Below are positions 38,016 to 64,000 of a DNA stretch of 64,000 nucleotides, piece by piece. Source of the stretch: Balanoglossus misakiensis (taxonomy: Eukaryota > Animalia > Hemichordata); the NCBI GenBank assembly GCA_040954595.2, contig CM082577.2, forward strand, positions 1,488,001 through 1,552,000, given 5' to 3'. A program made the translations under genes and the position numbers. The notes beneath the pieces were generated by a model. The model saw nothing but the letters and a program-made list of their open reading frames with translations, was not told the origin of the DNA and did no database searches. Each line of letters opens with the position of its first letter. Position 1 is the first letter of the stretch.

Positions 38016-38804
38016 TTACTTCTTTTCTTTGCATTTACACGTACATTCCGAAGTTACTGGATAAGGTACTTTAATCCAATCACACTTCTTCTTCCTCTTC
38101 TTCTTGGAGCCCTTCTTCTCGCCGTCTTTGGTTCCCCTCTTCTCGCGAGACGGGGTGATATCGGGCGGACCTTGTTTGGATTTCCCTTTGCTTCCCCGGC
38201 AGTGCCAGAACAGCAGCTGTAGCTCGGAGATTTTGCCGGGCTCGCACGCCATTCCCTCCGGCCAAGAGCAGTTCTGGTCGGCGCACTGACCGTCTTTGAT
38301 CCACCGCGGCCAGAACAGTTTCCCCACGAACGTCCAGCGGTACTGGACGGGGCACGCCGCCTTGCGCGCCAGCCAGGCCTGCATCTGTTCCACGGTCTGT
38401 TCGTCCATGGTCACCGTCTCCCCTTCGTCGTTCACGTAGCTGAAGTCGAGCCCGGCGGCTTGCTGTCTCAGGGACTCGGGCACGGCCGTCGACAGTTGCG
38501 CCAGCTGCTCGTCGGGCTCGTCCACCGACATCCACTCCCGATCGAAGTCTCTCCCCAGTTTCTTCTCCAGTTTCTTGGTGCGCAGGTCCTTCGCCTTGGG
38601 CTCGAGCTTGGGGTCCAGCTCCGGCCACCAGAATGTCCTGTTGTTGACCTTCAGGATTGGCGGATCTCGGGACCCGTACAACTGTCTCAAGGATTCCAGA
38701 GTCTTATCTTCGGTGGTGGCCGCACCGCCGGCGTTCACACGTGACACACAGGCCCAATAGCACAGACAGACGATCGTGAAAGCACACGCGTTTCTCCGTG
38801 TCAT
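38016..38804 (-). CDS. Noggin-like protein (noggin domain with an insertion between Cys5 and Cys6), 262 aa, single coding exon
   Basis: ATG at 38804 (the track's 38813 start is GTG). Signal peptide MTRRNACAFTIVCLCYWACVSRVNA. Motifs DPKLEPKAKDL..LEKKLGRDFDREWMS, WLARKAACPVQYRWTFVGKLFWPRWIKDGQC, CSWPEGMACEP, WHC-[38-aa K/R-rich insert]-CDWIKVPYPVTSECTCKC. Confidence 0.92.
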   Translation of the reverse strand: MTRRNACAFTIVCLCYWACVSRVNAGGAATTEDKTLESLRQLYGSRDPPILKVNNRTFWWPELDPKLEPKAKDLRTKKLEKKLGRDFDREWMSVDEPDEQLAQLSTAVPESLRQQAAGLDFSYVNDEGETVTMDEQTVEQMQAWLARKAACPVQYRWTFVGKLFWPRWIKDGQCADQNCSWPEGMACEPGKISELQLLFWHCRGSKGKSKQGPPDITPSREKRGTKDGEKKGSKKKRKKKCDWIKVPYPVTSECTCKCKEKK

Positions 38805-41800
38805 AGTCTCCACGCTTTGTCGTGTGCACAGCTGGCAGTCTCAACACTTGTTACAGAATTCTGGATGGAGTGTCCTCGCGTGGAGTGTCCTGACTGGACC
38901 GGTAGGTTGGGATAAATCTGAGGCCAACTGTCCTAGACTTATTAAACGTACCGGCGTTTCTCGCGGATAGATGCAAAGAGGCGAGTCCTGCAGCTACATC
39001 GAAGTGCGCGTCGAAACTAGAGGTGTTTGGCAGCAGTAAGTTTAGTTTTTTTTTCTAAACGGCTCTCATACGGATACGACACGGAGGACTTGCTGCTGAC
39101 GGTCGCACACTGTTATGCAGTACGTATCCAACTTGCCGACTGGGGAACGGACTGAATCGCACTGCACAAAAAGAGCACTATACTCTCTCGCAAGGCAGAC
39201 ATAAATTAATCGGCAATATAGATTGATTGTTGATAACCTTCTGTACAGTCTGAGGCGGCGGCCGGGGGTGTGGTAGCGGGCCCAATCGGGCATCTAATAG
39301 GACCGTCCGTCCGCACGGGGGAGAGAATACACCGATGTTGATTTGCTCGCTCGATGGACGCTTCTCTGACGTTGCCCACCAAGTCCCAGAGAAATGCACG
39401 CACACACTCGCTTCTTCAATTAACCGCTCGGGTTTCTGCCAGTCAATAGAAGGCGTCGTCAACTGCAGGGCACGTACGCGGCGTAAGTAACCGAGTCGCC
39501 CCACCTACTGATCAGCCCAGGCTCATATCGCTAAAACTTATAGTCCCCCCCCCCCCCCCCCATTACATGTTCAGTGGTATTCTGCGTTTTATCACGTGTC
39601 GTCTACGGTTTACAGCAAAGGTCAGCCGAAGTCTATTCACTGAGAAACCCAGCGCCCCCGGCATTGGCTAAATCATGAAAACTTGTTATGAAAGAATAAG
39701 ACGCCGCCAAACAAACAGAATCTAATATGTGCGAGTTTTTGTTCCCGCCACTGGCGCGACATTTCGAAATGATTTGACGCGTTGAATCTGTCAAGGCAAG
39801 GATAAATTAATATCAATTTAATGGTGGAACGTGCGATCTGTCGCTTAGAATCCAGAGTTAGGTAATAACTTCATACTTTAAATGTCATATTCTGTTTTTG
39901 ATAATGTCAAACGGTAATAAATTGTGAGAGAGGCACTTTGCGTACATGAGATTCGCTTGGAGGACTTTCATTACTGCACGTAATTAGGGGCTATGATCAC
40001 ATGCGCTGGTGTCTCTCTGTGATATTCAAAAGCCATACCAACTAAAACGTGTGTTTCGCATCCCGGCGAAATGTCGATATTGCTGTTTCTCCAGTTCTAC
40101 GATTTCCTTTTACAAATACCAATATTTCAGTGAAAAAAAGAAGGCCTGCGTTAGATCGTGGTCAATTGGTGGAAGTACGGGGTAAGTTGGGAGAACCAGG
40201 CAGCGTTCCTTTGGTTTTACATCTTATGAATAAAAAAACACCGATTTTTTTGTACTGTCCTTAAATGAATCATGAGAGGGTCCGAGTAGGCACAATGTTC
40301 CAAATCAAAGTGTATACGTTAATGTTCCTCTAAGATGGCTTGGACGTGTCAGAATGCTCACCACGTCCTTTGTGCGCATCGTTAAGCACCAGTCTGGCGA
40401 ACCAAAGTATTCAAACCAAAGAATGTGGTTGGTTTAATAGCCATAGTCCCTCCATGGTTTGTTATTAATCAGTTCAATTTCGATATAACTGTCCGTACAC
40501 CTAAAAAGTAAACGCGGGAGGCTTGATAAGTCTGGCGGGAAAAGTTGTCATCACTCCAGGCTCATCACTGCAGTTTACCAGGAGGCATACGCGAATAAAA
40601 TAGCGGCAAACCGGACGTGTAGGCGGTCAGTATAGACCAGGGGTAGTCAATGGCGTAGATACATGAACGCGTTACCTTTACTTTAACTACTTGAGACTTG
40701 AAGCGTCTAATTTAAACAGCGATCACTCACTACTTACGTGAAGTATAAATAAACACGACATTACAATCGCCCCGTGTCCGCCACACAAAGGACAAGCCCG
40801 ACCCGGGTCGCCGTGGTGACGTCACACCTCCATTCCAGGTAAGCCCCCTAGACTAGGGGACGCATGTGATGTGCCGACGGACGGCCCTCGCTGACGCCAG
40901 ACACTTCATTTTCCAGCAAATCATCGCTATTGTTGTCGCGGGCGCGGATTTCTCAACCTGGCGCAACCCGAACTCTACTTCCAGAAATAAAGAAAAACAT
41001 CCTCTTATGGGAATTTCGGATTTCATCAGGAGAAACGGTTGTTGAACTGTCCGTGTTTTTTTTGTCCTTGATGGAAGAGTCTCGCCGGGCTAATTACGCC
41101 GAGACAAATTTATGTCGAAGTGAGCGTTCTTTAGAATTTGCAAGACTCAGACCACTGTACCCCATTAATGTTTACTTCACTATTCTTTAGTGAGAAGACT
41201 CCATTATCCAACCCCTGAAACCGTTGCCCCCCCCCCCTATCAACATCCAGGTATGGCAATATCAAAACTAAGGAGTGCCGGGGTATTGTTAACATGGTTA
41301 CGCAGAAATTATATCAGGTTGCTAATTATCGTGTTTTTCACAACTGTATTGGCCGAAAATATACCATATCATTATACACAATTCTGACGCATAGTCTGAG
41401 CCAAAAACAATATCAAAACCAAATCAGATCGACACAATTTTTTAAAATCCCGGCGCCACCATAAAACGAGTTAGTCACCGTGGTTCTCTTTATGAATACA
41501 TAACCCCCGAGACAAATGGTCACGTGGTATAAAGTTTGAGGGAACGTTTATTTCATCAAACAGTCATCACCCCTTAACTTTTAAGTCAAGGCAATGCAAT
41601 CACCATAAAAACCTTAATTTGATGCTTCTTACAGCTTGAAGTTGTGTGTGAGTGGGTGACCGCCATTATTTAATTTAGATATTACTCATGCTTGCCTATG
41701 GGGGCGAAATGTAAAATGACAGTTAATTTTGCGCCGTTGAAGTCGATACTTGTCAAGCCGACGGGGAGGGTAATCGATCACTTGGCCAAAAGGATATGAC

Positions 41801-42304: not shown

Positions 42305-44483
42305 AGCGCCAGGCTCACCGATCGGACACACTTCAGTTTTGTGATGCATGGCGGATGCATCAGATTAATGTTTTTTATTTTATTCTGTGAGAAGCGAGAT
42401 TTCAGTTTGAATCCGGTTCTTTTATGTAGCTCACTGGGAACTGTGCCAGTGAAGTCATTTGAGAACTGGTGTGATACATTCATTTAAGATAGTCAGCCCC
42501 TCGGGGACAGATTTGCAGAAAAAAATGATAGACCTCCAAATCTGGCAGAAGAAATTGGATAAATCATCATTTACAAATTTTAAAAACAAGACTTCTTATA
42601 AATGTTAATACGTATCACTTATTGATGATCAATTAACAAAAGAGATATTACGTAACGGTAAAATAAATGCAAGAAAATAACATTGTTTTCAGCGTCACGT
42701 GTAAGATAAGACGGAGGTGATTTAGCAAGATTTGGTCAACGAGTATATTCAGGCACGTAACACCAAAAATAACTTGAAAAGTTTTCCGGTCCGTCAGCAG
42801 GCTGAGGAACGGCCAAACTCATGAGCGCACGAGAAATCCTTTTCGATCGGCATAGTTTTCCTCATAAGGAGCCGATTGTTTTTGTGATGGAAAAGAAGTT
42901 TCGTAAGATTACACTGCTCTAGCTCGCACGAAGCTCTATACCTTGTGTGCCCACCCCGGAATACGTGTCAACCACTTCCTCATTGCAGAACCTGATACAA
43001 AACTGTATTTCCCCGCGCTCCGAAACCACAGATAGCTCGGCACGGCACGTCAGCTATATTTAATCTTCCCGTGCGTCACGTCCACCTTCTACATTTGACA
43101 GGTGTTTGTGCGTTTTGAGTTGAAATGAGAGAGGAATGTTGATATCTGCTGTGAAAAAATCTGCACCCTCACGCATAGATCTCCACACTCCGGTTGTCGT
43201 GCGATATCGAGATCTGCGTCAGCGAAGGCACTACAGAGGGCGCTAGATATTACATCCTGGCCCCTTCACCAGGTGCACCAAGCCGTGATACGGAAATTCC
43301 GATCAATAGGAAATGCGAAGATTTGTGATGCGCTCGCGAATACAACGGACCGCATGTGGCGTTACCTGCAGACGGAACATGTGGTCGTGCGCGGGGCTAT
43401 GATGACGTGTTACAATAGGCGGTGTTACTTGTGAGTTACGAAAGATTTTAAGCCCAAAACGGCATGTGTGAACATCCCGTGAAACACCGTTTCGGTGTTC
43501 TCATCTCGTATAAGACGTGTATGTCTCACAAAACAGGTAACTTCGGACACACATACTCGTGGTCATTACAATGTAGGTCAGCCGTTCTAAGGGAATTATT
43601 GTTTCTGTGTCAACTTAAAAATAGCGAGTAACATATCACAACAAACCCATGCTCAAAGTTTTTATTTATTTTGCGTAGGTGCGCTATCGCATGCCACTGT
43701 GTGCTTACCTTGCTATCCATCCGCGATCTCTTCATCGTCAATTTCCACCGAATTACCTATGTGAACTGGATTCTCCGGCTCGACCACGGGAACTGCAGCC
43801 TATTGGATTTGAAAAAAAGTCTTATTAAAGTTTTTTACTCTTATTCAAGTTTTTTTTACTGGGTGCGTCTCCGATTTACATAGATTTCAATTTTAATATC
43901 CTGTAGGGAAATACCAATATCAACATAAAGAGGCGTAAACATCCCATGCATCTTCATCATAAACATAGGCACACGGTTCATCATGATCAGACTACAGTTT
44001 ATCAGTGTTCAGAGTTTATCAATGTTCCGGACCCTGACATATTTCACACAATGTCAAGAATACGGAGCGCAGTTATAGACTCGCTATGGTTACCTGCTTC
44101 CATTGTCTACATAGTATTACATCCATAGTGTGAAAGCAGACGACAGTTACCGCTAAATCTCGGCCCTCAAAGGTGAAATATTTCTACACAGTTCATGGTT
44201 TTTTGAAGTTGATGCGGTTCAGCCAAACGATACAGCCAGTATCAGCTTTACTCTAGCTCGGTGGAAGTGTGTAATTCGAATTCAGACTGTCTTTGTATAA
44301 ATGCACTGTGTCGTGCCGTGTCGTGCACGGCTCACCATATAAATAAGTAGCAGTCGTTTTTTCCTGGTGTATGACCGACCATCTACCCTTCATGCAGTGG
44401 TCCTACATGTAACCGTGGAATTCGAAGCAGCGCCCTCAACTTTGTAGAACAATTTGTAAGACCAGTTCCGGGTTGATATACCA

Positions 44484-44494
44484 GGGGGAAACCC
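44484..44494 (+). promoter_or_regulatory. Candidate NF-kB/Rel site GGGGGAAACCC, ~200 bp upstream of the adaptor A ATG
   Basis: Close match to the kB consensus GGGRNWYYCC; motif match only. Confidence 0.35.
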
Positions 44495-44690
44495 AGTTTT
44501 AGTCATTTGGAGAGCTACTTGCAGAATTTTATCACCGGCACAGCGTGTCAAGCTGAGTTCAAGGTTTGGAAACTGACTTGCGGGACTCGGGACTAGAACG
44601 CTGCACAGTTTGGAACCGCTGATGTACTACATGTAGTACGCAAGTCTTTCAGATGAAATAGTTATGTTGTGAACCTGTGCTGGGACCATC

Positions 44691-47600
44691 ATGAATTCGA
44701 ATCGTGAAAGATGCCGTGAAGTCCTCGAGGAAGACTATCTCCGGTGCAAGTATATCCCGAAGCAAAACTGTAACAAGAACGTAGTGAAACAGGTAAGCGA
44801 ACGGCGTTTCAATGTTCTGTTGCAGTCCGCGTTTAGCTATAGACGTCATAACCTAGCACTTTTGATAATGCAGCGTGTGTATCACGTGAAAGCAGTAGCG
44901 AAGGTGTGTGGAGCTTAACTTCCTGGTTCTGAAACCACGGGGCAAAATAGATACGGCACAAGGTTACGGGTACGGGGCGTATATGTGGCGATGACTTCTG
45001 TATTTCGTCCCGACATGGACGGCTAAACCTCAACAACCACCAAGTGACGTTCATGGATCAGGGTGGAGTCGGAGAGCCAGTGTTGGTGGTTGCTTTTGCA
45101 GTCAAAATTCACACTGCTCTGGCATTGCTAGTTTGCATGATTTAGTATTGAAGGACTGAAATTCAATGCAGTTACATGTAATTATGAGCTTAGTTGTCAC
45201 AATGACACCGTTGCAATGATTCGGAGTGGTGCTTGCAACAGAGCCCGGACAAGCATTTAAAAAATATCATACTCTGGATCTCACACTTTTTTTTGAGGGG
45301 GGGGGGGGGGGGGTGGATAATTTAAATCTCCGGGAAGTACTAAGATGTAGTTTCGTGATCACAAAGCGCGTTCCTGTGTGTCCAGTAGCCGTCATGACAG
45401 ATCGTCACGGCTCAGGGAAATCACCTTTGCTGGGTCCATGCCGGGGTCACTCAGCTATGCGAGAAATGCGCACGCATTCGCCTTGTATGAACTTTTATCT
45501 CGACGTCTCTTGCTTTATTGCTTCCTGCGTCGCACGCTCAAATTTTATAGTATAGTATAGTATAGTATAGTATAGTATAGTATAGTATAGTATAGTATAG
45601 TATAGTATAGTATAGTATAGTATAGTATAGTATAGTATAGTATAGTATAGTATAGTATAGTATAGTATAGTATAGTATAGTATAGTATAGTATAGTATAG
45701 TATAGTACAGTACAGTACAGTACAGTACAGTATAGTATAGTATAGTATAGTATAGTATAGTAGTGCTAAATTTTAATAGGCCAGTATTTTCATACTGTCT
45801 GTCTACTCAGTTCCCTACAACATGTTGACATGACCAATATATTCAGCTTTATATCACAGCCTATAATATGAGCGAGAGGAACACACTGTCGAAATTGTAG
45901 TTGTTGCGCAGTGATCAGTGACCTGTAATCCAATCTCGTCTTTCTGAAACCGACCTACATTTTAGTATCATGTACCTCGGGATGGATTTTCAGGGAAAAA
46001 TGATAATCTCCCCAAACCTTCCAATTCCTTGTTGAAAACAAAGTCGAAACCTAGATGTTCACCGACTTGTTGTAATGAAAACCTCTACTTGAAATTTTCT
46101 CCATAGACTTAACACATAGAGCGGGCGGCCATTTTGAATTTCAAATTTGAGAAAATGTCACTCTCTCATTCAAAATGTTGCACGGTGACACTCCGATTTT
46201 AATCTCAATTTTAAAAGACAATAATCTGAACTTGACCTGGCCAAATTATGAGAGAAAGTTGAAGATTTCCGAAGCGCGTTCTTACTACCTTGAATTGAAC
46301 TGGTTTATTTACAGGAAGTTTTCGCAAGGCTGGAGGTAGATGAACGTCCCAGTTCCGTTGCCTGCAGCAACGTTCCCGGAAGTACAGGTAAGAGAGTCGG
46401 CGAATATTATGGTGCATGTATTTGTCGTGAGCTGAACAAATATTGACATTATGTGCGTGATGGGAAGTTTTTGGTTCGTGACTTGTCTCCCTTTTATCGT
46501 ACAAATCCAAAATGTATCAAACATGTAAATGTTCGCCCGTATTTTGTTTCAGTAATGGATTTTTCTTTTTTTTTAAATCAAGAAAAACATCATAGCTCAC
46601 CGCGGAAACTTCTGGATTAGAGACGGAAATTGCCCCAAATCTGCCATTATTTTAAATTCAAAATGGCCACCAGTCTCTGTCCTGGCGTGAATGATTACTA
46701 TGTGCCCGAAAGCTGGCCACTAGAAATTGCTTTTTGCTCAGTCGAAGATGCTTAAATGATGAACATGGACCTAAGCAGACGTGATATAGGGCTTTGCCTT
46801 CAATAGGCAATGACGCGGAGACATCTCATCAGTCTTTCAAAGAAATAAAAACTTACGTCGCTTTTCCCTCATTATAGTTTGTTCAGTTAACTCATTACCT
46901 TTCACTATTCCAGTGTATTTGACGCTGGAAAGAGTAAAGGGAAGGAATAGCCGTGTGCCATGGAAGACGTTCGAGCTGCGCCCGGACAATTTCTGTGGAG
47001 TGGACCTTGGTCCCCGAGAAAGAGACGGCAAGAAACTGGTGCTCATCTTCAAATCCGACAAGGACAATGGAACTACAAGTCTGCTGCAGTTGAAAGCGTC
47101 AAAGTACATCGCCCACTGCCTCAAGGTGTCCGACAAACCGGACATGACTAGATGGAAAGACAGGGTGTTGAATTTGCTGATGGACAAAGGTACATATCTT
47201 CCTCCACATCGATATCTTTTCCTTATTTGCACGGTAGATTCAAACTTGGCGACACGTGCATGGGTGGATGCATGCGGACGGATAGGTACAGGACACGGTC
47301 GTGTCAAAATGTGGTACAAATTCATGATACACTTTCTAATTTCTTACAGAGCAACATTACGAAGTGGGCATCTCTCAGGCACATGGCGATCTACCGGCGG
47401 GAACTATGAACCTCTACGTTTTGCCGAAAAGGATGGTTTTGTGTACTCTGTTTAACACGAAACGTTCGCTCCCGGAGTGTGTCATGGATCAAGCAAATTC
47501 TAATTTTGACTTGTCCTACAGTCCGGGGGAGCGGGTATACATTTTGAGAGTCCGGGGGGAGTCGAACAAGAAATTCCTCAGGACAAAGACAACGGACGAC

Positions 47601-50600
47601 AGCGAGCGAATCGCTCGAAAATTCGACGAGTTCAAATTAAGCCAGGGAACGGAAGTGAGCGCGGACTCTGTCGTTGAGGAGAACCACAACCCCACAGAAA
47701 GCGGGAATCGGGACGCACCGACGACAAACTCTGTAACCAGTGAAACCACCAGGCTTTGGCGGGAAAGGAGGGGTCTTCGGGGAGGATCCCAGCGAGTATC
47801 TCACCCTAAACCGGACGTCCATCCGACAAAGGAGATATGTCACAGTTTCCAGGGTGCTCCCCCGATGCCCAACCGCTGTCCAAAGCCGGCGACGTGTCGG
47901 TGTGCGGAGTGCCAGCCAGCTGAGGATTGGTACGTCAACCAGCCAGGGGTGCCACCCCCGGTACCCGCTCGCCAGCAAAAGGTCAGTAGCATGTGTGGGA
48001 CGGGTATTTGTAATGTTTAGCCACTGCACTGACAGCCAGGTGGATAGCAAGTAAGCAGGCACTGTTGTGGTGCAACGTGGATGCGTGTGAATTTTCCCCG
48101 AAGCTAATGACCATCCCACTGCAGTAATCTAGTTTATTTGACCAAAAATGGCACCAATACAGCACATTTTCGACGTTAGGCCGTTGCATAAGATTGCACT
48201 GCGTAATATGCAGTCACTCTTCGTTGACTTGAATGGACAAAATAAATTGCCACCCATTCCCCCGACTGACATTTCTTCTGTCGCATTTCTAGGCTGTCTT
48301 GGAAGTGACTGTCGCTGTTTTTGCTGGAAGACCTAGCCTAGGCGGGAGATGGATCGTAGATGTATACGTTGTCCACCCGGAGAAAAATCCCCTCGCCATA
48401 GTAAGTCAGAACTGGAAGCGGCCAACTGGTTGCAACCAATTTATTATTACTTTGCTCAATGATTGGGTCATTTGGTATAACACATACGGGTGATCCAGGC
48501 TCGAGAAATAACACGACTGAACACAAATAAATGGCATCTTGGAATGTATGTCGAAGAAATTTTGAGGCCGTAAAATGAGTGGCAGAAAAGAAGCTATTTT
48601 AGTATTTCACCAGAAAGTCTGACAACGTCATTCATTTCTTCCAGAGAGAAGCGCTGCAACAGTGTAAAACGAGCAAAGACCACATCGCCCTTCCGCCGCG
48701 TCGGGTCGAAGTGACCGACACACTGGTGATCAAGATACCCAAGTTACAGAGAGGATGGCGCTTCGAAGGCGATACTCAGTCTAAGGTGGGGTATTACTAA
48801 ATGCCGCTGTTTGCGAGTGAGTGAGTTAAGAGTGGCTATAACTAAGTGATAAGCCCACGCGTGACTCTGCGTTGACTTTTTGCTGACACGTGATGCAACA
48901 TCCAATTTGACGGACAAAACATCTGTGACGATCCACCACCTCGGAGGTCTAAACTTAAACTTGAGTCAGCTCTCGCTCACCAGCTCCGTATCAGTGATGC
49001 TTGGTGGGAAAGTAATGTGTGGCATTTCAAGTTCTGGTTCCAAAAACCGGTGAACTTCTGCATTTTTAAAAGAGAGTCTTTGTTTGGAAATTGTTGTGAG
49101 TTCAAAGAGAATATCGCGACACACTTCGCATTCCGTTGTCATTCGGCCAACTGCGAAACACGCATACTTGAAGGTTTAGGCATATCATAAAGAGCTATGT
49201 TAAATGCAGAGATCGTAGAAATGGTGGGTAATACAAACAGATTGCACGGGGGCAATACTCCCACCACTCATCTCATTGAATTACTAAGAGTCCATCCCCT
49301 TTTACCCTTCAGAATAGCTTACCTGTTTTCCAGTCTCGACCTTTAACCTTTGTGATCCAGTCAGTACCAACGAACCGCACTCAGCATTGTTGACAAATCT
49401 GTTGGAAATAAAAGAACACGAGATGAAGTCAGTGGTCGCGTTGCCGCATGCCAAAACTAACTATTCCGTAGTTGAATACGCCGCCATTAAAATATTTTCC
49501 ACTTCTGTACACAGATATTTGCCTACGAGGAAGTGGAGAGGATCGCAACAAAGCGTACCCTTGACTGTGTTTTGGATGAAGGGCACACTTTCGTCATCGC
49601 CCACGATGCCAGGCTAAACCAGGACAAATTCCACTGTCAGATTCAAATCAAAGGTCGGAAAAATCGAAACGATGTGATATACAACCTATCAACGAACTTT
49701 AGGACTTATGTAAGTAAACGGGTCTTATATGTTCAAGAATTCAAACAGAAATATTGTATATAGTACATAAACTACAGAGCCCGTTCGACATCAGTTCTGT
49801 ATGCACGTCAATACAAAGATACATAACGATTATTTCTGCAAATCACGTGAAGAAGGTTACCAATATTAATTATTATATGTGGAATAATGCATTGCAAAAT
49901 GTTGGCAATGTCAGCTGCAGCGGATAGTGAAACTTTGAAAATTGAAGTGCATGTCGGTGCGACCCATGCTGTGCACGTTGAGAAAAACCGACATCTGTGG
50001 ACACCTGTGTGAATATACAACCCGTGTCCACCATCAATTTCCATGAAAACAACCAACAAAATGTTATATTTTCGTGCAGGCAAAATCGGGTGAACGATTG
50101 GGGGAGTCGGACGTGGACAAAATGGCGGCAGAGATTCACAGACAAGGGACAGATATGCCAGGTTGGTTAACTTACAAGAAACTGGCGGAAATCAGCTCTC
50201 TGTTGACGCCATATTGCACCCTTGGGAACGACTGGCGCACCGTTTTGGACTACGCCGGTTTCGACTTTGTTGTTATCGACGAGGTGGAGCGAACTTTCGC
50301 CCGGACGGGGATCAGTCACGGCGAGCTGGTGTTGCGGCTGTGGTGCCGGATGAAACCGGACGAGTTCACGGAGGAGAAGCTTCGAGACGCGTTCCTGAAG
50401 ATGGGGAGGGAAGACGCCGTGTCTGTCCTGGCTGGAGATGACGAGGAAGGAGATGGACGTCGTTGTGTAAGGGAGACCGGAGGTGACCCGTCTTGTGAGT
50501 CGTGCGCGTGCCGCGTCAACAAGAACAATAGTGAATCGTGGCCAAGCTGTGTCAGGCCGAACCACGTCGAGACATGTGCTGACTCTGCAGACGCTGGTAC

Positions 50601-50901
50601 TAGCGGTGGTCTCACCAGTCAACGGCACTTCTGTAATCCAGTCTCGGAAAGATGTGAACCCACGTCGCCGCCGTGCAGCGAGTGCCACGCCGGTCACGAC
50701 GGAATGTCAGTGCCGCCGGCGTGTGGCGGTGGCGGAGACGAACATAATATCCCTGTCGCCCCGGAGTCGTCGAGCCAGTGCACGGCCCAGGAGGCGAATG
50801 CCACCGAATCGGCGCACTACGAGGTGTTACCGGGGGATGCACAACGGAAAGATTCTGATCTGAACAAAGAAAACCTCGACTTGAAAACAGGTGCGCTGTG
50901 A
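44691..50901 (+). CDS. Adaptor A: Dok-7-like PH-PTB, pY/Pro-rich linker, UPA-like domain, death domain and Cys-rich tail; 782 aa, 8 coding exons
   Basis: Exons 44691-44792, 46315-46387, 46914-47189, 47350-47981, 48293-48400, 48645-48785, 49515-49709, 50080-50901. All GT-AG; phases 0,1,1,0,0,0,0; 2349 nt in frame. PH: VLEEDYLRC..EVFARLE..VYLTLE..PDNFCGVD..KLVLIF..DMTRWKDRVLNLL. PTB-like: HYEVGI..GTMNLYV..MVLC..FLRTKTTDDSERIARKF. UPA-like: LEVTVAVFAG..IVDVYVV..GWRFEG..HTFVIAH..FHCQIQIKG. Death domain: ISSLLTP..GNDWRTVLDYAG..LVLRLW..LRDAFLKMGREDAVSVL. Confidence 0.8.
45546..45760. repeat. (TATAG)n pentanucleotide microsatellite with a TACAG variant block, in intron 1 of adaptor A
   Basis: Seen directly. 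Confidence 0.97.
45960..46293. mobile_element. Degenerate non-autonomous DNA-transposon-like repeat
   Basis: Contains TTTTCTCCATAGACTTAACACA-GGCGGCCATTTTGAATTTCAAA and TTGCACGGTGAC, and ends in ACTACCTTGAA. A related inverted fragment (TTAAATTCAAAATGGCCACC) lies at ~46652-46671, and a possible related terminus (TTAAGATAG...CCTCGGGGACAGAT) at ~42484. Family not determined. Confidence 0.45.
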
Positions 50902-52690
50902 AAAGCATACAATGGTCATCGACCCCTGAACTCACGCCATCGGACGGGACTTGGAGGAACACAAGTGGAACGTTCCAGCCAGTTTCCGCCCAGCCTGCAG
51001 CAGCCGAAAGTCTGCTATCGTGGGAAGATACGGAAGATGTGAAAATCCCTACTCAAATGGTCAACTGACGACATGGAGCACAAAAAATGATGACATTTAT
51101 GAGAAGCTCTGAAACCAATACTTATTGAATAATATTTCAAAGGTTACATTATACCTTTCAATTAAATGAAAGACAGAGAAACTTTACGGATAATCGAAGA
51201 AAATGTAGTTCCAAAGTACAGGAGATTTCAGTTTCGAATACTTTGCAAATTGTGTCCAATTCTTCTGCAAACTCTAGAGATCTGTACGTAAACCTCGTTC
51301 ATTGCCTTCCATTCGTCAGTTACTGAAATCAGGAAATCTGATCAGAAAACGTTTCTGTTAAGGTCGACCCCTGACATGACATATCTCCAAGACCGATGTC
51401 CATGTTACTTTTCTTCTCTCGTATTTTAAGCCTCTTGTAAATAAGCCCGTTCATTCGTATTTGTATATTTATTGCCTGCTGTGTCTAGTAGGATATCAAA
51501 TCTGCTGTATATTTTGCTCGTGTTCTAAATTTGACTTCATAATTCCCAAACATGCATCGCGAGTACAAGTTCTTTCTGAAGCATTGACATATTTACTGGC
51601 TACTCTTGGCAATGACTTTGTGATACTGAGCTGTTTGTGGCACGTATACCTTGCGTGTATAATTAATCAAAAATTAAGCAATCCCCTTTTCTGCAAACAG
51701 AATTTTACTGTGATATCTTCCGATACAATTTACATTTCTGTCGCTGTAAAAAGTTGAATTATTGCAGTTTTAAATAAAATCAGAAATCAGACTGAAAGTA
51801 CAATTCTGCATTACGGAATCATGTCTCAGCGTCGGAAGCGTGAATGCGCCTAACAATTGAACGTTCTTGACCTTTTTGCGTGAAGGTCATCATGGTTCAC
51901 GGTTGTTTGACGCGTGCGCCCTCAGTGTCTAACTGTGTGCAGTTGAATTACTGTGAGTGAATGAATGAATGAGTGAGTGGGCGGATGAATGTAGTGAGCG
52001 TTTCCGGGTTCTTGTGGAATAACGGCATCATGTGTTAGATTCAAAACGGCGGAAATAATTGGCGGTCACACGCACGACCCACGACTATAACGGAAGCGAA
52101 ATCGAGCCAATTTCAGTCCCAAACTGAGTTCGCACATGCTTGTAGGGTCTTGGTAACTAATTGCTAATTTACATATTGAACGACTTGAAATGCAGTTACT
52201 GCATCTAATTTTCTAGAGAAACTGAGATCATATAGATCTGTACATGTGTTAAAAGAACGGGTTTAGGCCCCAGTAAAGTTTACTTGAAGAAGCATAATCT
52301 GAAACTTGTTATGTGTAGGTCCTATATTGCCAGGAAAAGCGTATCTCGGATTTTTAAAACACATTATTTTTTTGCAAGTTTTATTTCAGCCTTTGGGGGT
52401 TTGAAGTTCAAGGCGTAGGCCGGAAAGATAGAGAGGTTGGCAATAACGTTGCGTGACAAAGCGCGCGTGAAACTGAGACGATACCTGGTCCACCGGCGCG
52501 GCCGGCCTCACAAACAGTTTACCGGCCGGCGGCCGTCAGGCGTTTCCTGGTGGGAGAGTCACATGACTCTGACTGTACTTGACGCTGCAGTCACGACGCG
52601 CAGTCAAACCATGTAAACTGCTGATAGTCCAGTCCTCGCCACGGGATCTCTTAGTTCCACAGCCGGACCTTGCAGGGGAGAATGGTTCCG

Positions 52691-55600
52691 ATGGAGAGTA
52701 CTCACCACAGGGGCACCGTTATCAAGACGGGAATTTGGCGCTGCAACGCGCAGGACCCGAGTAAAGGCAGAGGAAAAGTAAGTGCCACATAATTGCTGCC
52801 GATCGACATGCGGAAGACTTCAAACCTGATATTGTTATAAATACTGTTAATAGGATTGTATCGCCGTGACGTGATGATTTTTGGCCAGTTTCACATCACT
52901 TCTTCCCATGTCTTACGAAAATACGATCAGCACGAGAAACTTTTTTATAAGATGGTAAAATCGCGTAATTGTTAAATTAATATGTATGTATACTAAATAC
53001 AGCATAATTTGGTATGATTTACACAGCAACGAGTAAAAGTTTCTATCGAAGTAGACGATGGTGGGATGATTCCAGCTGAATCTGGTAAGCGCAATAACTC
53101 CATGATATTGGCCAACAAGTCAACAACACGGAAAACCAGTTTTCACATATTCCATATCTTATACATGTAAATAGTAAACATTCTTTAGTTTAACTGTAAG
53201 AAAGCCTTTCGACCGTAGGTCACATTTTCTGTACAACTCCGTTTTTGTGATGAATTGTAGACTCGCATTGGCGTAATAACCAAAGCCTGCTTTTGAAGAG
53301 CAGGCTTCTGAACAAACAAAAAACGCCAAATCATTTTTGTCACATTGCATAACCATAAACAGGCCGGGGATTCCCCGGGTTTCTTTCCCCTGTTTCGGTG
53401 GGCCTACTTCCTCCTTGCACAAGCGGCAAGATATGCGTGGACCGGCCGCTTCACTTGCTTCGGGCCGAGATACAAGGCTTGGCACGAAAGTTCAAAAGTT
53501 CAGACAAACACGACGGTAGTTTCTCGGGGAATTCGGTGATGTCGTTTGAGGAGTTGTCCCCTTTGTGTAAACCGAAAGTAATATGACTTTGTTTACTGTG
53601 GGTACGTTATACGGCATCTCACGTTATGACGCATGGTATATCGTATATTAAAGTACGGTCACTCATGACCGTGATTAAAGCAGCTTCGCTACACGCACAG
53701 ACCGCGTGACTATAGACTATAGGACAACTTTAAAATTGATGTCTGTAAGGATTTGGGGTAGGGCACGGGTGGCAAATGGCGAACTGGGACACGACAGGTC
53801 TAGGAAGTCCTATCCCGTGACATAACAGGAAATACTACCCGCGGCTCTCACGGTTACCTTCACGCCGGCTACCGTGACTGTAACGGTGATTCGTGTTGTC
53901 AGCTTTTTTGAACGCGTGTTTCTTTCAAGTCGCCCACACATTCGATTTCGTAAACTTTTGATTTGTTTACTACATACATTCTAACTAGGCTTTTTGCTAC
54001 CTGGTGAGTGATAAAAGGGGTTCAGAAGCAAAATAAATGTCAAGTCATAAGCTCACTAAACTGATAATTGTAAAGATATAACTTTTAGACACCGATTAGT
54101 CATGAAATACAGTCCAGACACTCTAGAAATGGGCCCCGGCAGGGGACTAGGACCAGACTATGGTAGAAGTGTTTTCATATGATTTGACTGTCGTAATTAC
54201 ACGTATTGTATCTCTCCACAGTAATCATCAACCTTTACAAGCTCGCAAAGGACAGTCCCCTCATCTCGTCGACCAGAATCACGCAGGACAACTTCTGCGG
54301 CGCCGCCACCAGCCACATGCAGAAGACCTGCAAATCGTTGGTCATTCTGTACAAGACAGAAGAGGGCGAGAATAGGGGTATTCTGCTTAAGGACGGAGAC
54401 GGTTGCCCCAGCGTGGATGAACTCAAGTGTCGATTCCTGCAAGCGCTTCTGACAGAAAGTAAATGAATGATGATGATACATATTCACGCTTTCCTAGAAA
54501 TTGAGTTGGCGAGGGAGGGGGGGGGGGTACACAGTTGCCAAAAACTGGTATAAGTGTCTCTGTATATGTTTTTGTGACAAGTTTCTGGCTTTCGTGTTTT
54601 TGTGCCATCTAATGTTTTTATAATTTTTCTTGACAGGACAAATTTACGAAAATGTCGAATATGACGGGGAAATGAGGAATTTGTACGTGCTCAGAAGAAG
54701 GGTGGTTATGTGCAGACTGTTTTCCAAGACCGGCGGACTCCCGGTCTGTTGCTGGGATTCCCCGGTGGAGGCGTTGAGGAGGTCGTACTGCCGAGCCGGG
54801 GACGCGGTGTACGCGTTGAAACTGTCGGGCGCGGATAAGCAGGGCGCGGAGATCACCACGTTCCTCAAGACGAAAACATCAGACGACAGCGAGCACATCA
54901 ACACCACGGTGCAGAAGTTCGTGTCGGCGATGGATCGTGAAAGTCGCGGCAGTGACTGCAGCAGTGTCGACAGCGGGGTCGGAGACTCGGGGAGCGAGAC
55001 TGCCATCGCCGACAGCAGCCCGTCGCATGCGGACGATTCGTCACCGACGATTTCGCCGCCGCGCGTTTGGGTGGCGCAAGCGCGCGCGGAACTGATCGAG
55101 TCGCCACCGATCTACGCGCGCCCGGGAGATTCGGGCGACGATTCCCCGGCTAGCGACGCCACCGCCGGCGCCGAGGCGGAAGAAAAGTCAACTGGACTGT
55201 CCGAAGCGTGTCGGAGGAACTCTCTGCTTTGCAATCAAGACAGCCAAGAAGATCCCGTTAAACCGCGGTGTTCCTGCCCATCGTGCATCTCAAACTTGTC
55301 GGCCACTGTGCGTGATATGCCCGTGGGTATGGCACTACACGACAACCACTATGTAAATACCCAAGTCTATGAGAATAATCTCACGGAAAACGAAGAAATC
55401 ACCAAAGCGGTTCCAAAGAGACCGCCCCCTCCCTTGCCCAAGAGGACGTATAAGGTTAGTTGAGTCACAGAAGCAAGTCTTGTCAAGTACTCTAGAGGCC
55501 TTCATCATTATCAAACTTTCTAAGTCAATATTTAATAACTACTTTTCTCCTATTTCGAGGAATTGGTCACTCCCTGCTTCTGTTAATTATTAAACCGAAA

Positions 55601-56059
55601 ATCCAGTTTGGTTCGATGGATCCTAGATACTGGACATTCCATAAATGATCAGTGAAATTAATTCTTTCGTTTCAAATTTTCAAGTTCAATTTCTGTCTTC
55701 TTTTATAGAAGGAGCTGACCGACATGCAGCGTTTGATAATGTTGATCGACAAGAGGAACGACCAGGACAACGACTGGTTCACGTTTGAAGAACTTCACCA
55801 GATCAGCGAGCTGCTGTCGCCCGTCTGCCCGCTGGGCCACGACTGGCGAAGGCTGGTCGACTTCGCCGGGATCAGCATCACGGAGTTGGAGGGCGACATC
55901 GACGCGGTGGCCGCTCACTCGGGAAATTTGCCCGCGTACCTGTTCTTGACCTTGTGGCGGAAGGTGAGACCCCTGGACTGCAACAGGCAACGGGTCAAAG
56001 ACGTTTTGGGCGACATGGGCAGATACGATGTTCTCAGGGTCGTCTTCAAACAAGACTGA
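52691..56059 (+). CDS. Adaptor B: Dok-7-like PH-PTB, Ser/pY/Pro-rich linker and death domain (no UPA); 516 aa, 5 coding exons; paralogue of adaptor A
   Basis: Exons 52691-52777 (an in-frame ATG also at 52682), 53027-53084, 54222-54458, 54637-55454, 55709-56059. GT-AG; phases 0,1,1,0; 1551 nt in frame. The PH starts VIKTGIWRC. Shared with A: IEVD/LEVD, DNFCG, LVILYK/LVLIFK, NLYVL, FLKTKTSDDSEHI/FLRTKTTDDSERI, CxCxxC, YVN, PPPxPxR. Death domain: ISELLSPVCPLGHDWRRLVDFAG..LFLTLW..VKDVLGDMGRYDVLRV. Confidence 0.82.
53366..53376. promoter_or_regulatory. Near-palindromic kB site GGGGATTCCCC in intron 2 of adaptor B
   Basis: Matches the 11-bp p50-type kB consensus GGGRNWNYCCC; motif match only. Confidence 0.35.
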
Positions 56060-56839
56060 GGAAGAAGAGGATTTTCTTTCCCATGGGAGTACACACAGAG
56101 TAAAAGCAAAGACTCCGTCCACATTCCTCGCTACGTTAAATGTAAATCCACGTAATACATATTGCATTGTGGGTAAGAAGTCGACAATTCGTTGAAATAA
56201 GAGTTTGAAGAAATGTTACTGTATTTCACTGCTTAAAAACGCTGCTACACACTGGGACTACGTATTACTTTGACAACAGGAAGTGGATGCATTGTTTAAG
56301 TCAGCACAGTTATACTGAAACTCCTTCACCTTTATTTCCAGTTAGGAATGTCTGCCCACTTCCTCGTCAAAGTCAGCAAAAGGTCACATCAGTTTGGGTT
56401 GAAAATAAAGTCAGTGGATTTTATTAATTCTGAGACAAAAATTGGTCAACTTAGCCTTAAATTTCTCGAAGGTGGCACTTTTATAGTAATATGATGCATA
56501 AATCTAAAAACATAAAAATTGTGTAAAGAACATAATTATGATACACATGTACAATGTTCTCCCGTGGAATTGTTCAATAGTATTGATTTTATTTGCATGA
56601 CAATGAATGTAAGCAATTGTTATGGTAATAGATTCTATTGTTTTCACAAAATTAAAGAAGTACAAGCAGATCTCTACAACTCTTATTTTGTACAAAATAT
56701 AAACTCAATCCCTTTGAGACGACAGTGACACTGCACTCTGGTTGTTGTAAGTAGATACACACAATTGAACATGTTGGTACAGCCCACTTGTTGGCAGTAC
56801 TGGTATATATACACAGCTGGTGAGCTGAGGGAATTCCTA

Positions 56840-58450
56840 CTAGAAATCCAGGAGCTGTAAGTATAAAAGAAAACAATATTCATGACATATAACAACATTT
56901 TAGAGAGTATTTGTATTTTTGAAACAAAATAATTTGGTTGGAAACATAAATCTGATCGTCAGGATTGTTGCTGTGCAGAAATCACTCTGGAGAATGGGAA
57001 GAGCATTTTAACTATTTTGGAAAATAAGAACATTTTTACGTGTATTGCCATGGTCACTGCAGTGGAAGTACTGATGACTTTGGTTATCAGTTAATACTGA
57101 TTAATATTATTATCTATGGGTTGGCCACACTGGCAATCTATTTGGTTGAGGAACTTCGAGTTTAGTGTTTCACTTCTGTTTATTGTCTGGCTGAACAGCG
57201 GCTGAATCAAATCGTCAAATCGTAAAGCGCCCCCACTTGCCATTGATGACAAAACTTTTGTTTCCTTAAGTCATGCCATCAAACAAACGCATATTGCTAG
57301 CATCTTGAATGTTAGTTCATAACATGTTTTGTAGTGCAATTAATAAAAAAAACTGCAGCTAACACTGCATAATATCCAGCCACACCTTTGCCCACATCTA
57401 ATTAGTCTAAACTATGAGCTGAATATCACATGTATAATGAACATGATGAAGTAAAAACTTACCAGTTGAGGTAGTACTTTTTCAAAATGTTCTATTCCAA
57501 CCACGTCAGACGCTGCGGCTTTCGCCTGTAATTCTGATCTGTTGGCGGCTTCTGTGTGCACACACAAATGTATATCACGATTTAGTGTCTTCTCATGCGT
57601 TGTCTTGCATTTGTCCGATGTGAAAGATTTATGCGCGTAATTGCAGAATGCTGCTGCTGATCGTGGTTACAAAAACAGCAACACTCACACTGGAATCTGT
57701 TGTTTCTATTCCGACTAAAGTAAGGAACAGCCAGGTGTATGTAATCAGATTGGCTACTCACAGGCCATTTACAAAAAGAGGGTGCACGTCAAACACAATC
57801 TTAACCCAGTGGTAGCCATGAGGCCAAGGGATGTATTTATACAATCGTAATATATGAAATGATGTTATAATTTCTTGTAATTTATGAATTTATTATATGT
57901 AATTCATACATACCTAGCGTAAATATTCTTAGGTATTCTACAGCCAGCTTTAGTGCATCACTGTTGACTGTCAGATATATAATAAATAAATAAATAAATA
58001 AATAATAAATAAACAAATAAATAAATAAATAAATATGGAAAGTGTATAGAAATTAGAATACAATGTATATAACTCACTTTTCGTCTTTTCATCTTTGAAG
58101 TTATTTTGAAGAAGTTTATGCACAGTCTCCTGAAAAATGATAAATGAGAAAATTACATTTATTTCTATCGTTATCTGTACTCATGGATGTAAAGATATAT
58201 GGGTATAGACATAATCTGATTTGGTAGTGGTACTATGTAATACCTTTCCCTTTTACCAACTGGACTACCAAGTGAATTGTGTACCCGAAAGGAAGTCTAC
58301 GAAGTCCTGATGTTGTATCATGTTTCGTTAAGGTGTTAGGGTCCATCCTCAAAATCAGTCAGCCTCGTGGAGCTAAAGGCTAGCACCTACTAACGTTTTG
58401 CACCAGATACTTACGGCTTTGAATGTGGCGCCCACTTCGTCGTCCGCCAT
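56840..58450 (-). CDS. CENPX: Centromere protein X (CENP-X / MHF2 / STRA13), 81 aa histone-fold protein, 5 exons
   Basis: Exons (minus strand): 58450-58415, 58129-58078, 57967-57914, 57551-57463, 56854-56840; GT-AG; 246 nt. Protein MADDEVGATFKAETVHKLLQNNFKDEKTKINSDALKLAVEYLRIFTLEAANRSELQAKAAASDVVGIEHFEKVLPQLLLDF, with the diagnostic FKDxKTK and EKVLPQLLLDF ends. Confidence 0.95.
57983..58033. repeat. (TAAA)n microsatellite in CENPX intron 2
   Basis: Seen directly. Confidence 0.9.
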
Positions 58451-58911
58451 TTTGTGTTGATGTTTCGTGTAACTTTTCTCCAATCAGCATTCGAGCCTCT
58501 TTCCAAATATACCTATTTTCTTACTGTTAAACCGAAGTAAAAATATTTGTCGTGTTTATCGCTGAACAAACTGATTAGTTTTGTGCGTTATTTGTGTGAA
58601 GGGTAAGTTCATCGAGAGACGAACCTGCTAGATTCACCAAAATAACGCCGTGTTGACGAAGAACCATTTGAAATTCATCTCCATTTTAAAATGGTTTAGT
58701 CCAAATGGTCCGACACTTAAAAAAGCCCTCTAAGGTAGTAAAAATAGGGTGGATACTGAAGAAGTCCAACATCCAATCAAATGCATGAAATGACGTATTC
58801 TTGATAATGTTTAGAAAGTTAAGCGGATATGAAATTGCTAGGGTCATAGGTAACACAACTACAAATAAACGTACTACGATCGCGATCAAGACTAGACAGG
58901 GAGCGTGAAAC
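58451..58911. promoter_or_regulatory. Probable bidirectional promoter shared by CENPX and PCYT2
   Basis: Only 461 bp separate the divergent ATGs. The region is locally CpG-richer and has a CCAAT at ~58480; the CENPX start AAAATGGCGG is also a YY1-type motif. Confidence 0.6.

Positions 58912-64000
<5,089 letters not shown>

What the first reader, a model, noticed from the sequence alone, without database searches (positions are those of the whole stretch)
44691..56059. Tandem pair of apparently novel adaptors fusing a Dok-7-like PH-PTB module to a death domain
Seen: two complete in-frame gene models (782 and 516 aa) with matching exon phases, mostly fragmented in the ORF track. By eye the N-termini align with Dok-7 (from memory LTLEDICGL, HTLAIVC, MCAWDARIRYALGE..FHVTV..GPATLHL, WKLSDLRRYG, FFLSSAEGEQI) against DNFCG, KLVLIF/SLVILY, MTRWKDRVLNLL..HYEVGI..GTMNLYV, WDSPVEALRRSY and FLKTKTSDDSEHI. 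The C-termini are death domains of the MyD88/UNC5 type (GNDWR/GHDWR..LW..MGRxD). Established: Dok/IRS/FRS2 adaptors dock on phosphorylated receptor tyrosine kinases, and I know of none with a death domain; death domains nucleate Myddosome/PIDDosome/DISC-type complexes. Inference: a membrane-recruited adaptor system coupling tyrosine-kinase receptors to death-domain NF-kB or apoptotic signalling, possibly with A and B as a heteromeric or activator/inhibitor pair.
Basis: partly seen in the sequence, partly recalled or inferred. Interest (0 to 1): 0.9.

Follow-up and report, generated by a model that had tools for sequence, protein, structure and literature searches.

The report
Acorn-worm Dok7-like adaptors with death domains
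Two neighbouring genes, likely from an acorn worm, each join a front end predicted to fold like the receptor adaptor Dok7 to a death domain (one also carries a predicted UPA domain), a combination shared with uncharacterised proteins of three acorn-worm species that would link tyrosine-kinase receptors to death-domain signalling, though no function has been tested.

Summary
Two tandem paralogues rebuild with canonical splice sites: A (8 exons, 782 aa) and B (5 exons, 516/519 aa). Both end in a Pfam death domain. All 5 relatives found among 1.84 billion representatives are uncharacterised acorn-worm RefSeq proteins. Each holds the exon-4 domain and a death domain in one chain, and the two closest align collinearly with A and B.

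An AlphaFold model of one relative ranks the Dok7 PH-PTB structure first of 48,161 chains (Z 14.9; IRS-1 9.3). So A is PH-PTB-UPA-DD, an UNC5/PIDD-type tail with PH-PTB where ZU5 usually sits, and B is PH-PTB-DD.

A and B are separate, conserved subfamilies. Receptor docking, A/B pairing and NF-kB or apoptotic output are inferred only. The likely phosphotyrosine-binding position is basic in B-type proteins but acidic or Ala in A-type. There is no RNA evidence. My paper searches found no description. Verdict: a real new domain combination of known modules.

The parts
44691..44792 (+). Gene A exon 1 (aa 1-34): start codon, predicted PH strand 1 and basic loop 1-2
   Evidence: 14 of 33 aligned residues identical to P0001
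46315..46387 (+). Gene A exon 2 (aa 35-58): predicted PH strand 2; the least conserved exon
   Evidence: 5 of 21 identical to P0001
46914..47189 (+). Gene A exon 3 (aa 59-150): predicted PH strands 3-7 and C-terminal helix with Trp139
   Evidence: 55 of 92 identical to P0001
47350..47981 (+). Gene A exon 4 (aa 151-361): predicted PTB-like domain (aa 151-246) and linker
   Evidence: 67 of 96 identical to P0001 in the domain, 23 of 110 in the linker
47931..47972 (+). Gene A linker motif: one YxN (Tyr345) followed by a proline-rich stretch
   Evidence: YxN reached by 5.7% of shuffles, PxxPx[RK] by 23%
48293..48400 (+). Gene A exon 5 (aa 362-397): first part of the UPA domain
   Evidence: 24 of 36 identical to P0001
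48645..48785 (+). Gene A exon 6 (aa 398-444): middle of the UPA domain
   Evidence: 34 of 47
49515..49709 (+). Gene A exon 7 (aa 445-509): end of the UPA domain
   Evidence: 27 of 62
50080..50901 (+). Gene A exon 8 (aa 510-782): predicted pre-DD helix, death domain (about 50188-50433), poorly conserved tail, stop codon
   Evidence: 75 of 119 identical over aa 510-630, 26 of 111 over the tail
52682..52777 (+). Gene B exon 1 (aa 1-32; second ATG at 52691 gives 516 aa)
   Evidence: 12 of 29 identical to P0004
53027..53084 (+). Gene B exon 2 (aa 33-51)
   Evidence: 7 of 19
54222..54458 (+). Gene B exon 3 (aa 52-130): rest of the predicted PH domain; the helix Trp is absent
   Evidence: 26 of 74
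54637..55454 (+). Gene B exon 4 (aa 131-403): predicted PTB-like domain (aa 131-227) and long linker; no UPA exons follow
   Evidence: 42 of 90 identical to P0004 in the domain
55350..55448 (+). Gene B linker motif: two YxN (Tyr369, Tyr375) and a proline-rich stretch; same double YxN in P0004
   Evidence: two YxN reached by 1.0% (B) and 2.5% (P0004) of shuffles
55709..56059 (+). Gene B exon 5 (aa 404-519): pre-DD helix, death domain (about 55799-56044), stop codon
   Evidence: 55 of 115 identical to P0004

Best explanation
These are two paralogous genes, likely of an acorn worm, that each join a predicted Dok7-like PH-PTB module to a death domain, with a predicted UPA domain in between in gene A, and they likely act as cytoplasmic adaptors that would turn membrane and tyrosine-kinase-receptor recruitment into death-domain assembly. 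Shown: the exon structure, the death domains, no transmembrane segment, and two subfamilies (A-type with UPA, B-type without) present together in this window and in Glandiceps. Predicted from models of relatives: the PH-PTB and UPA folds. Inferred steps: (1) the basic PH loop would bring the protein to acidic membrane lipids; (2) B, which keeps a basic residue at the likely phosphotyrosine position and carries two YxN motifs, would dock on a phosphorylated receptor tail, be phosphorylated and recruit a Grb2-type SH2 adaptor; (3) clustering would concentrate death domains, and A, whose UPA-DD has no ZU5 cap, would nucleate or amplify a death-domain assembly, as UPA does for the CARD of NLRP1 and CARD8; (4) the output would be NF-kB or caspase activation. 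Odds: gene models 0.95, PH-PTB(-UPA)-DD architecture 0.9, descent from a Dok7-like gene 0.7, the receptor-to-death-domain mechanism about 0.4.
For: Gene models. A aligns with P. flava XP_070580820 at 50% over aa 3-639 and B with G. talaboti XP_077980474 at 33.5% over aa 10-519, collinear across the junctions. 5 of 5 hits of the exon-4 profile carry a Pfam death domain. AlphaFold2 model of P0005, mean pLDDT 71.7: seven strands plus helix, a second strand-rich domain plus helix, a disordered linker, a beta sandwich, a helical domain. Dok7 PH-PTB ranks first of 48,161 chains (Z 14.9, rmsd 3.7, 192 aligned), UNC5B UPA second (Z 11.8, rmsd 2.6, 131 aligned), IRS-1 third (Z 9.3, rmsd 10.1) (same order). 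An independent Atlas model of P0001 372-522 gives TM 0.72 over 142 residues to UNC5 UPA. Window introns 1 and 3 have the phase and structural place of human DOK7 introns 1 and 3 (c.54|55; c.331). YxN occurs in the linker of 5 of 7 proteins. The PH loop 1-2 is net basic in 6 of the 6 proteins with a whole PH region. Tree: B with P0004 at 100/100 against the five A-type rows. UPA lowers the threshold for CARD filament formation (PMC7794386).
Against: No transcript evidence for the window itself. The fold comes from relatives (P0005 is 31% identical to A), not from the window's spliced proteins; pTM is only 0.50, and the relative packing of the two domains may echo Dok7 structures the predictor was trained on. 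Identity to Dok7 is 13-15%, and no Pfam PH or IRS hit appears at E up to 10 in any exon or relative. The profile search did not reach vertebrate Dok7. At the column that by eye matches the first Arg of Dok7's LRRY motif, 4 of 5 A-type proteins have Asp and one has Ala. 2 of 7 proteins have no YxN, and the proline motif is within chance. Atlas features for P0005 10-250 pointed to ZU5-containing clusters (score 0.87, under the 0.9 bar). The death domain resembles NRADD, FADD, ankyrin and UNC5 at least as much as MyD88, and ankyrin death domains are not known to signal death (recalled).
Confidence: 0.5

Rival explanations
1. The architecture is right but the proteins are not tyrosine-kinase docks or death signallers. 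PH-PTB is a phosphotyrosine-independent membrane or peptide anchor, or a cap that replaces ZU5, and UPA-DD scaffolds partners as in ankyrins, SH3BP4/MACC1 or UNC5 (guidance, trafficking, cytoskeleton).
For: Acidic or Ala residue at the likely phosphotyrosine position in 5 of 5 A-type proteins. The UPA matches UNC5B and ankyrin-B (Z 11.8 and 8.1) better than CARD8 or NLRP1 (Z 7.7, 7.4). Copy number is low (one or two found per species), unlike the expanded invertebrate immune families described in PMC8195603.
Against: YxN motifs are kept between B and P0004 although the rest of the linker is only 35 of 116 identical. B-type keeps Arg or Lys at that position. K/R is invariant at A782 positions 105, 178 and 217 in 7 of 7 rows, which could form a shifted phosphate pocket.
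Confidence: 0.27
2. These are the acorn-worm orthologues of Dok7 itself, working with a MuSK-like receptor at neuromuscular or cholinergic contacts, with the UPA-DD tail as a lineage-specific addition.
For: Dok7 is the best structural match, 5.6 Z units above IRS-1. Two intron phases and places agree with DOK7. [quoted passage not shown]
Against: No sequence-level hit to Dok7. DOK7 intron 5 (c.652|653, phase 1) has no counterpart, since exon 4 runs unbroken through PTB and linker. YxxP motifs of the Crk-binding kind occur in 1 of 7 linkers. Whether these species hold a separate, more Dok7-like gene was not tested.
Confidence: 0.14
3. The exons belong to separate transcripts, and the fusion is a gene-modelling artefact.
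For: No RNA was examined for the window. AATAAA occurs in 4 of 7 introns of A and 1 of 4 of B.
Against: Five RefSeq models from three families join the same parts. All junctions are in frame and collinear with them. Exon 4 has no in-frame stop of its own before the donor, and the last exons have no separate start evidence.
Confidence: 0.04
4. The N-terminal region is a divergent ZU5 (or ZU5-ZU5), which would make A an ordinary ZU5-UPA-DD protein of the UNC5CL, DTHD1, PIDD or ankyrin kind.
For: Atlas feature search for P0005 10-250 lists ZU5-containing clusters first (0.87, 125 of 256 features shared).
Against: That score is under the tool's 0.9 bar and was not calibrated for parts of proteins. 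The model has two domains each ending in a helix, and residues 14-249 align end to end with Dok7 3-210, while UNC5B aligns only to 291-432. No Pfam ZU5 hit in 5 of 5 relatives.
Confidence: 0.03

Closest known systems
Dok7 (PH-PTB, PDB 3ML4); Dok/IRS docking adaptors (IRS-1 PH-PTB, 1QQG)
   Same: Predicted tandem PH plus PTB-like module with Dok7-like arrangement (Z 14.9, 192 aligned); introns 1 and 3 in the same phase and structural place; cytoplasmic; tyrosine motifs in the flexible region after the PTB.
   Different: Only 13-15% identical, no Pfam PH or IRS hit. Followed by folded UPA and death domains, whereas Dok7 has a long unstructured tail (PMC10117378). Likely phosphotyrosine Arg replaced in A-type. 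Linker motifs are YxN rather than YxxP.
UNC5B cytoplasmic ZU5-UPA-DD (3G5B); ankyrin-B ZU5-ZU5-UPA-DD (4D8O); PIDD1
   Same: Gene A has UPA directly followed by a death domain (UPA Z 11.8, rmsd 2.6 to UNC5B).
   Different: No ZU5, no transmembrane segment or ectodomain, no ankyrin or leucine-rich repeats. PH-PTB and a 50-130 residue linker stand before UPA. Gene B has no UPA.
Released UPA-CARD fragments of NLRP1 and CARD8
   Same: UPA plus a death-fold domain with no ZU5 attached; UPA fold matches at Z 7.4-7.7. Used as a 'works like' model only.
   Different: Death domain rather than CARD; no FIIND or self-cleavage motif; input module is PH-PTB.
MyD88, FADD, TRADD-type death-domain adaptors
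   Same: Two-module cytoplasmic adaptor with a death domain (closest for gene B).
   Different: Partner module is PH-PTB, not TIR, DED or TRADD-N. Death-domain similarity is weak: NRADD E 2e-4, FADD 2e-3, ankyrin-3 0.02, UNC5B 0.11, MyD88 0.95.

Membership tests
Dok7 / Dok family | N-terminal tandem PH and IRS-type PTB fold | tested here: met
   Model of relative P0005: Dok7 first of 48,161 chains, Z 14.9, rmsd 3.7, 192 aligned. The window's own spliced proteins were not folded.
Dok7 / Dok family | Sequence match to PH or IRS profiles | tested here: not met
   No Pfam PH or IRS hit at E up to 10 in window exons or 5 of 5 relatives; 3ML4 not among PDB sequence hits.
Dok7 / Dok family | Shared intron positions with DOK7 | tested here: inconclusive
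   Introns 1 (phase 0, PH loop 1-2) and 3 (phase 1, PH-PTB junction) agree with DOK7 c.54|55 and c.331. DOK7 intron 2 (phase 1) is recalled, not verified. DOK7 intron 5 has no counterpart. Codon-exact register not tested, as no tool gave a Dok7 sequence.
Dok7 / Dok family | Phosphotyrosine-binding arginines in the PTB domain | tested here: inconclusive
Column A782-204 is D/A/D/D/D in A-type and R/K in B-type.
Dok7 / Dok family | Basic phosphoinositide patch in PH loop 1-2 (K18, K20, R22, R54 in Dok7) | tested here: inconclusive
   Loop has 3-5 K/R against 0-2 D/E in 6 of 6 proteins with a whole PH region, but no basic column there is invariant.
Dok7 / Dok family | Unstructured C-terminal tail with no folded domain | tested here: not met
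   Death domain in 7 of 7 proteins; UPA in A-type.
Dok7 / Dok family | Binds and is phosphorylated by a receptor tyrosine kinase | not testable with these tools
   Needs binding and cell assays.
ZU5-UPA-DD proteins (UNC5, PIDD, ankyrin, UNC5CL, DTHD1) | UPA domain followed by a death domain | tested here: met
   A-type only: Z 11.8 to UNC5B 688-828; Atlas TM 0.72 to PF17217; Pfam Death. Pfam UPA itself gave no sequence hit. Gene B has no UPA exons.
ZU5-UPA-DD proteins (UNC5, PIDD, ankyrin, UNC5CL, DTHD1) | ZU5 domain directly before UPA | tested here: not met
   In P0005 the region before UPA is positively assigned: 14-249 aligns to PH-PTB and 250-289 is a 40-residue low-confidence linker; linkers are 50-128 residues and proline- or polar-rich in A-type.
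UNC5 receptors | Ectodomain and transmembrane helix | tested here: not met
   Highest 19-residue hydropathy 0.91-1.34 in 7 of 7 proteins.
PIDD / NLRP1 / CARD8 | Self-cleavage site at the ZU5-UPA boundary | tested here: not met
   No HFS-like motif (pattern recalled) in the 70 residues before UPA in 5 of 5 A-type proteins.
MyD88 | Death domain plus TIR domain | tested here: not met
   No Pfam TIR hit in 5 of 5 relatives or in window exons; MyD88 death-domain match E 0.95.

The most novel reading that the evidence does not exclude
Acorn worms fused a Dok7-type receptor-tyrosine-kinase sensor to the uncapped UPA-death-domain output of an UNC5/PIDD-type protein and split the job between two conserved partners: B reads the phosphorylated receptor and A nucleates a death-domain signalosome. 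This would be a direct switch from tyrosine-kinase signalling to death-fold signalling.
Probability: 0.25. Interest if true: 0.78.

Novelty: new variant of a known kind. Interest (0 to 1): 0.55.

Why it matters
Dok/IRS adaptors and death-domain signalosomes are normally separate toolkits. A protein that holds both gives a testable physical link between receptor tyrosine kinases and NF-kB or caspase platforms in a deuterostome lineage close to chordate origins. Gene A is also a natural UPA-DD without ZU5, which tests whether UPA promotes death-domain assembly as it does CARD assembly, and what keeps it off. The Dok7-like fold and introns bear on where Dok7 came from. Limits: the family is so far seen only in acorn worms, every module is known, and fusing new front ends to death-fold tails is common in marine invertebrates (PMC8195603).

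Tried and rejected
No whole genome is held for the window, so other copies and a separate Dok7 gene could not be sought. No RNA holder was listed; this is no evidence on expression, and no reads were laid.

Word-based homologue searches were blank or uninformative: B exon 4 against longer proteins, 0 of 93 candidates; B death-domain exon, 0 of 115; profile A2, 1 of 7,995 (P0005 only), although four other relatives are in the collection. They cannot bound the family's range.

PDB sequence searches gave nothing for the N-terminal module (2 chance hits; death domains only, plus QmcA at E 0.6). A two-sequence AlphaFold model of B exon 4 alone (pLDDT 59) gave no clear fold match (best Z 5.2 of 48,161). 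The Atlas's own model of P0005 was poor (pLDDT 0.46; best TM 0.33 for residues 10-250). No death-domain structure appeared among the top 50 rows and 117 other than within UNC5B and ankyrin entries aligned on UPA; the death domain rests on Pfam.

The complex prediction of two copies of P0005 10-250 gave no verdict (score 0.00, alignment not used, fold uncertain). An A/B heteromer was not modelled.

A profile of all seven proteins found no third paralogue in the window. The PxxPx[RK] motif was dropped as evidence (5 of 7 linkers, but 16-43% of shuffles of those). The ZU5 reading of the N-terminus and the MyD88 reading of the death domain were rejected as above.

Papers not held: Bergamin 2010 on the Dok7 structure, the ankyrin-B ZZUD paper and a DOK7 splice-mutation paper. 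Passages of PMC2772990, PMC5415388, PMC5043372 and PMC8662601 did not bear on the architecture. No supplementary files were read; domain-architecture tables in the supplements of PMC8195603 or PMC8662601 could list these proteins.
Full report
1. Observation. Reading 44000-64000 and testing splice boundaries gives two plus-strand genes. Gene A has eight exons and 782 codons, AG/GT at every junction and no internal stop; my first build missed the 108-base exon at 48293. Gene B has five exons and 519 codons, or 516 from the second ATG. Intron phases are 0,1,1,0 for the first four introns of both genes. A has three further phase-0 introns. GC3 is 0.61 and 0.71 against intron GC 0.41, both starts have in-frame stops upstream, and AATAAA lies at 51773 and 56404. 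Pfam Death passes its cut-off in 2 of 10 pieces scanned, the two last exons. No third paralogue lies in the window.

2. Relatives. A two-sequence profile of the exon-4 domain, run against 1.84 billion representatives, gave 5 hits at E up to 0.001. All are 'uncharacterized' RefSeq proteins of acorn worms: Ptychodera flava (P0001), Glandiceps talaboti (P0003, P0004) and Saccoglossus kowalevskii (P0002, P0005), from three families. Within each of the latter two species both proteins have the same longest-contig length, which fits linkage but does not show adjacency. 5 of 5 carry a Pfam death domain, and none has a PH, IRS, UPA, ZU5 or TIR hit. A aligns with P0001 at 50% over aa 3-639 and B with P0004 at 33.5% over aa 10-519, collinear at the junctions. 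Identity is concentrated in domains: 67 of 96 in the exon-4 domain, 85 of 145 in exons 5-7 and 75 of 119 around the death domain, against 23 of 110 in the linker. A tree of the exon-4 domain plus death domain (7 of 7 rows) separates B and P0004 from the five A-type rows at 100/100, so the A/B split predates the separation of this species from Glandiceps. No B-type was found in P. flava or S. kowalevskii; the search sees one representative per 50% cluster, so that is weak. P0002 lacks most of the first domain and the end of the middle domain and may be a partial model. The window is therefore likely from an acorn worm (inference). Independent models in three families make separate transcripts unlikely, but no RNA was examined.

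3. Folds. AlphaFold2 on P0005 with a 16-row alignment (five relatives plus eleven window exon pieces) gave pLDDT 71.7 and pTM 0.50: residues 14-143 form seven strands and a helix, 149-256 a second strand-rich domain and helix, 250-289 are low confidence, 296-431 form a beta sandwich, and 438-550 are helical. Foldseek lists UNC5B (5.9e-7), IRS-1 PH-PTB, Rtt106 double PH, Dok7 PH-PTB (highest TM by target in the list, 0.58-0.64) and ankyrin-B. VIA on those candidates (987 chains) ranks Dok7 first, Z 15.0, model 14-249 on chain 3-210. The search that does not use Foldseek agrees: Dok7 Z 14.9, UNC5B Z 11.8 on model 291-432, IRS-1 Z 9.3 with rmsd 10.1, single PH domains 9.0 or less. The Atlas's separate model of P0001 372-522 matches UNC5 UPA at TM 0.72 over 142 residues. 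So A is PH-PTB, linker, UPA, DD, tail, and B is PH-PTB, linker, DD. Against: Atlas features for the N-terminus pointed to ZU5 clusters below the tool's bar, and a two-sequence model of B exon 4 matched nothing clearly. The fit to Dok7's domain packing may partly reflect the predictor's training. No protein has a transmembrane segment.

4. Kinship to Dok7. Human DOK7 intron 1 lies at c.54|55, phase 0 (passage of PMC13545678), after K18 in PH loop 1-2 (passages of PMC4961371). Intron 3 lies at c.331, phase 1 (passage of PMC6207248), splitting codon 111, just after G109 (passage of PMC10117378). In both window genes intron 1 is phase 0 just before predicted strand 2, and intron 3 is phase 1 between the PH helix and the first PTB strand. 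Intron 2 is phase 1 at the start of strand 3; DOK7's intron 2 is recalled as phase 1 nearby but was not verified. DOK7 intron 5 has no counterpart. I recall, untested, that vertebrate UNC5 genes have phase-0 introns at about the places of A's UPA introns. Together this favours a Dok7-like 5' part joined to an UNC5-like 3' part, with B lacking the UPA exons (a symmetric phase-0 block; direction of change not tested).

5. Functional clues. K/R is invariant at A positions 105, 178 and 217. PH loop 1-2 is net basic in 6 of 6. YxN, the Grb2 SH2 consensus (recalled), occurs in 5 of 7 linkers, twice in both B-type proteins (1.0% and 2.5% of shuffles; 4-11% for the single ones); these rows are related, so not independent. 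The proline motif is within chance. B-type lacks the PH-helix Trp. The death domain is not assignable: NRADD, FADD, ankyrin-3, UNC5B and MyD88 in falling order, E 2e-4 to 0.95.

6. Mechanism. Most likely a membrane-recruited adaptor pair in which B docks on a phosphorylated receptor and A supplies UPA-assisted death-domain assembly. The analogy is that UPA lowers the threshold for CARD filament formation in NLRP1 and CARD8 once freed from the ZU5-bearing fragment (abstract and passages of PMC7794386). Every step after the anatomy is inferred; about 0.4. Rivals: a phosphotyrosine-independent scaffold of the UNC5/ankyrin kind (0.27), a true Dok7 orthologue working with a MuSK-like kinase (0.14), an annotation artefact (0.04), a ZU5 protein (0.03).

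7. Novelty. Not a member of the Dok family as defined (folded C-terminal domains, no profile hit) nor of the ZU5-UPA-DD family (no ZU5), but it likely works like a hybrid of the two. Full-text searches found no description in the listings: 'Dok-7' + 'death domain', 2 unrelated papers; 'UPA domain' + 'death domain' + 'pleckstrin homology', 2 ankyrin papers; a five-term PTB/death-domain query, 0; hemichordate + death domain + Saccoglossus + domain architecture, 5 papers, of which three were read in passages without finding it; six accession or locus ids, 0. The library lacks most subscription papers, and InterPro could not be queried. Lineage-specific death-fold fusions are common in marine invertebrates, hemichordates included, and unchecked notes of this scan report other front ends on ZU5-UPA-DD tails. 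What stands out here is the Dok7-type front end, the missing ZU5 and the low-copy conserved pair.

8. Verdict. Observation confirmed and extended; interpretation structurally supported and functionally untested. New variant of a known kind, interest 0.55.

Noticed in passing
window 17690-18394 (+) and 38019-38840 (-): Two convergent single-ORF noggin genes about 20 kb apart (Pfam Noggin 165 and 141 bits).
   Followed up: partly
window 6027-9102 (-): BTB-BACK-kelch gene (KLHL type): BTB and BACK in 8176-9102, kelch repeat exon at 6027-6236.
   Followed up: partly
window 58913-64000 (+): Multi-exon cytidylyltransferase gene running off the window end (Pfam CTP_transf_like); by eye ethanolamine-phosphate cytidylyltransferase (PCYT2, name recalled).
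   Followed up: partly
window 50080-50190 and 55709-55800: A conserved predicted helix precedes the death domain in both A- and B-type proteins (H438-455 in the P0005 model); role unexplained.
   Followed up: no
window 55200-55300; P0004 about 285-295: B-type linkers share a short Cys cluster (CxCxxC-like) before the YxN motifs; gene A also has Cys-rich stretches in its linker and tail. Possible metal or lipid-modification site, untested.
   Followed up: no
window 45555-45763: About 200 bases of a TATAG/TACAG pentamer repeat in intron 1 of gene A.
   Followed up: no
P0002 (XP_077862290): Second Saccoglossus A-type model lacks most of the PH domain and the last UPA exon's equivalent; partial annotation or a degenerate copy.
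   Followed up: no
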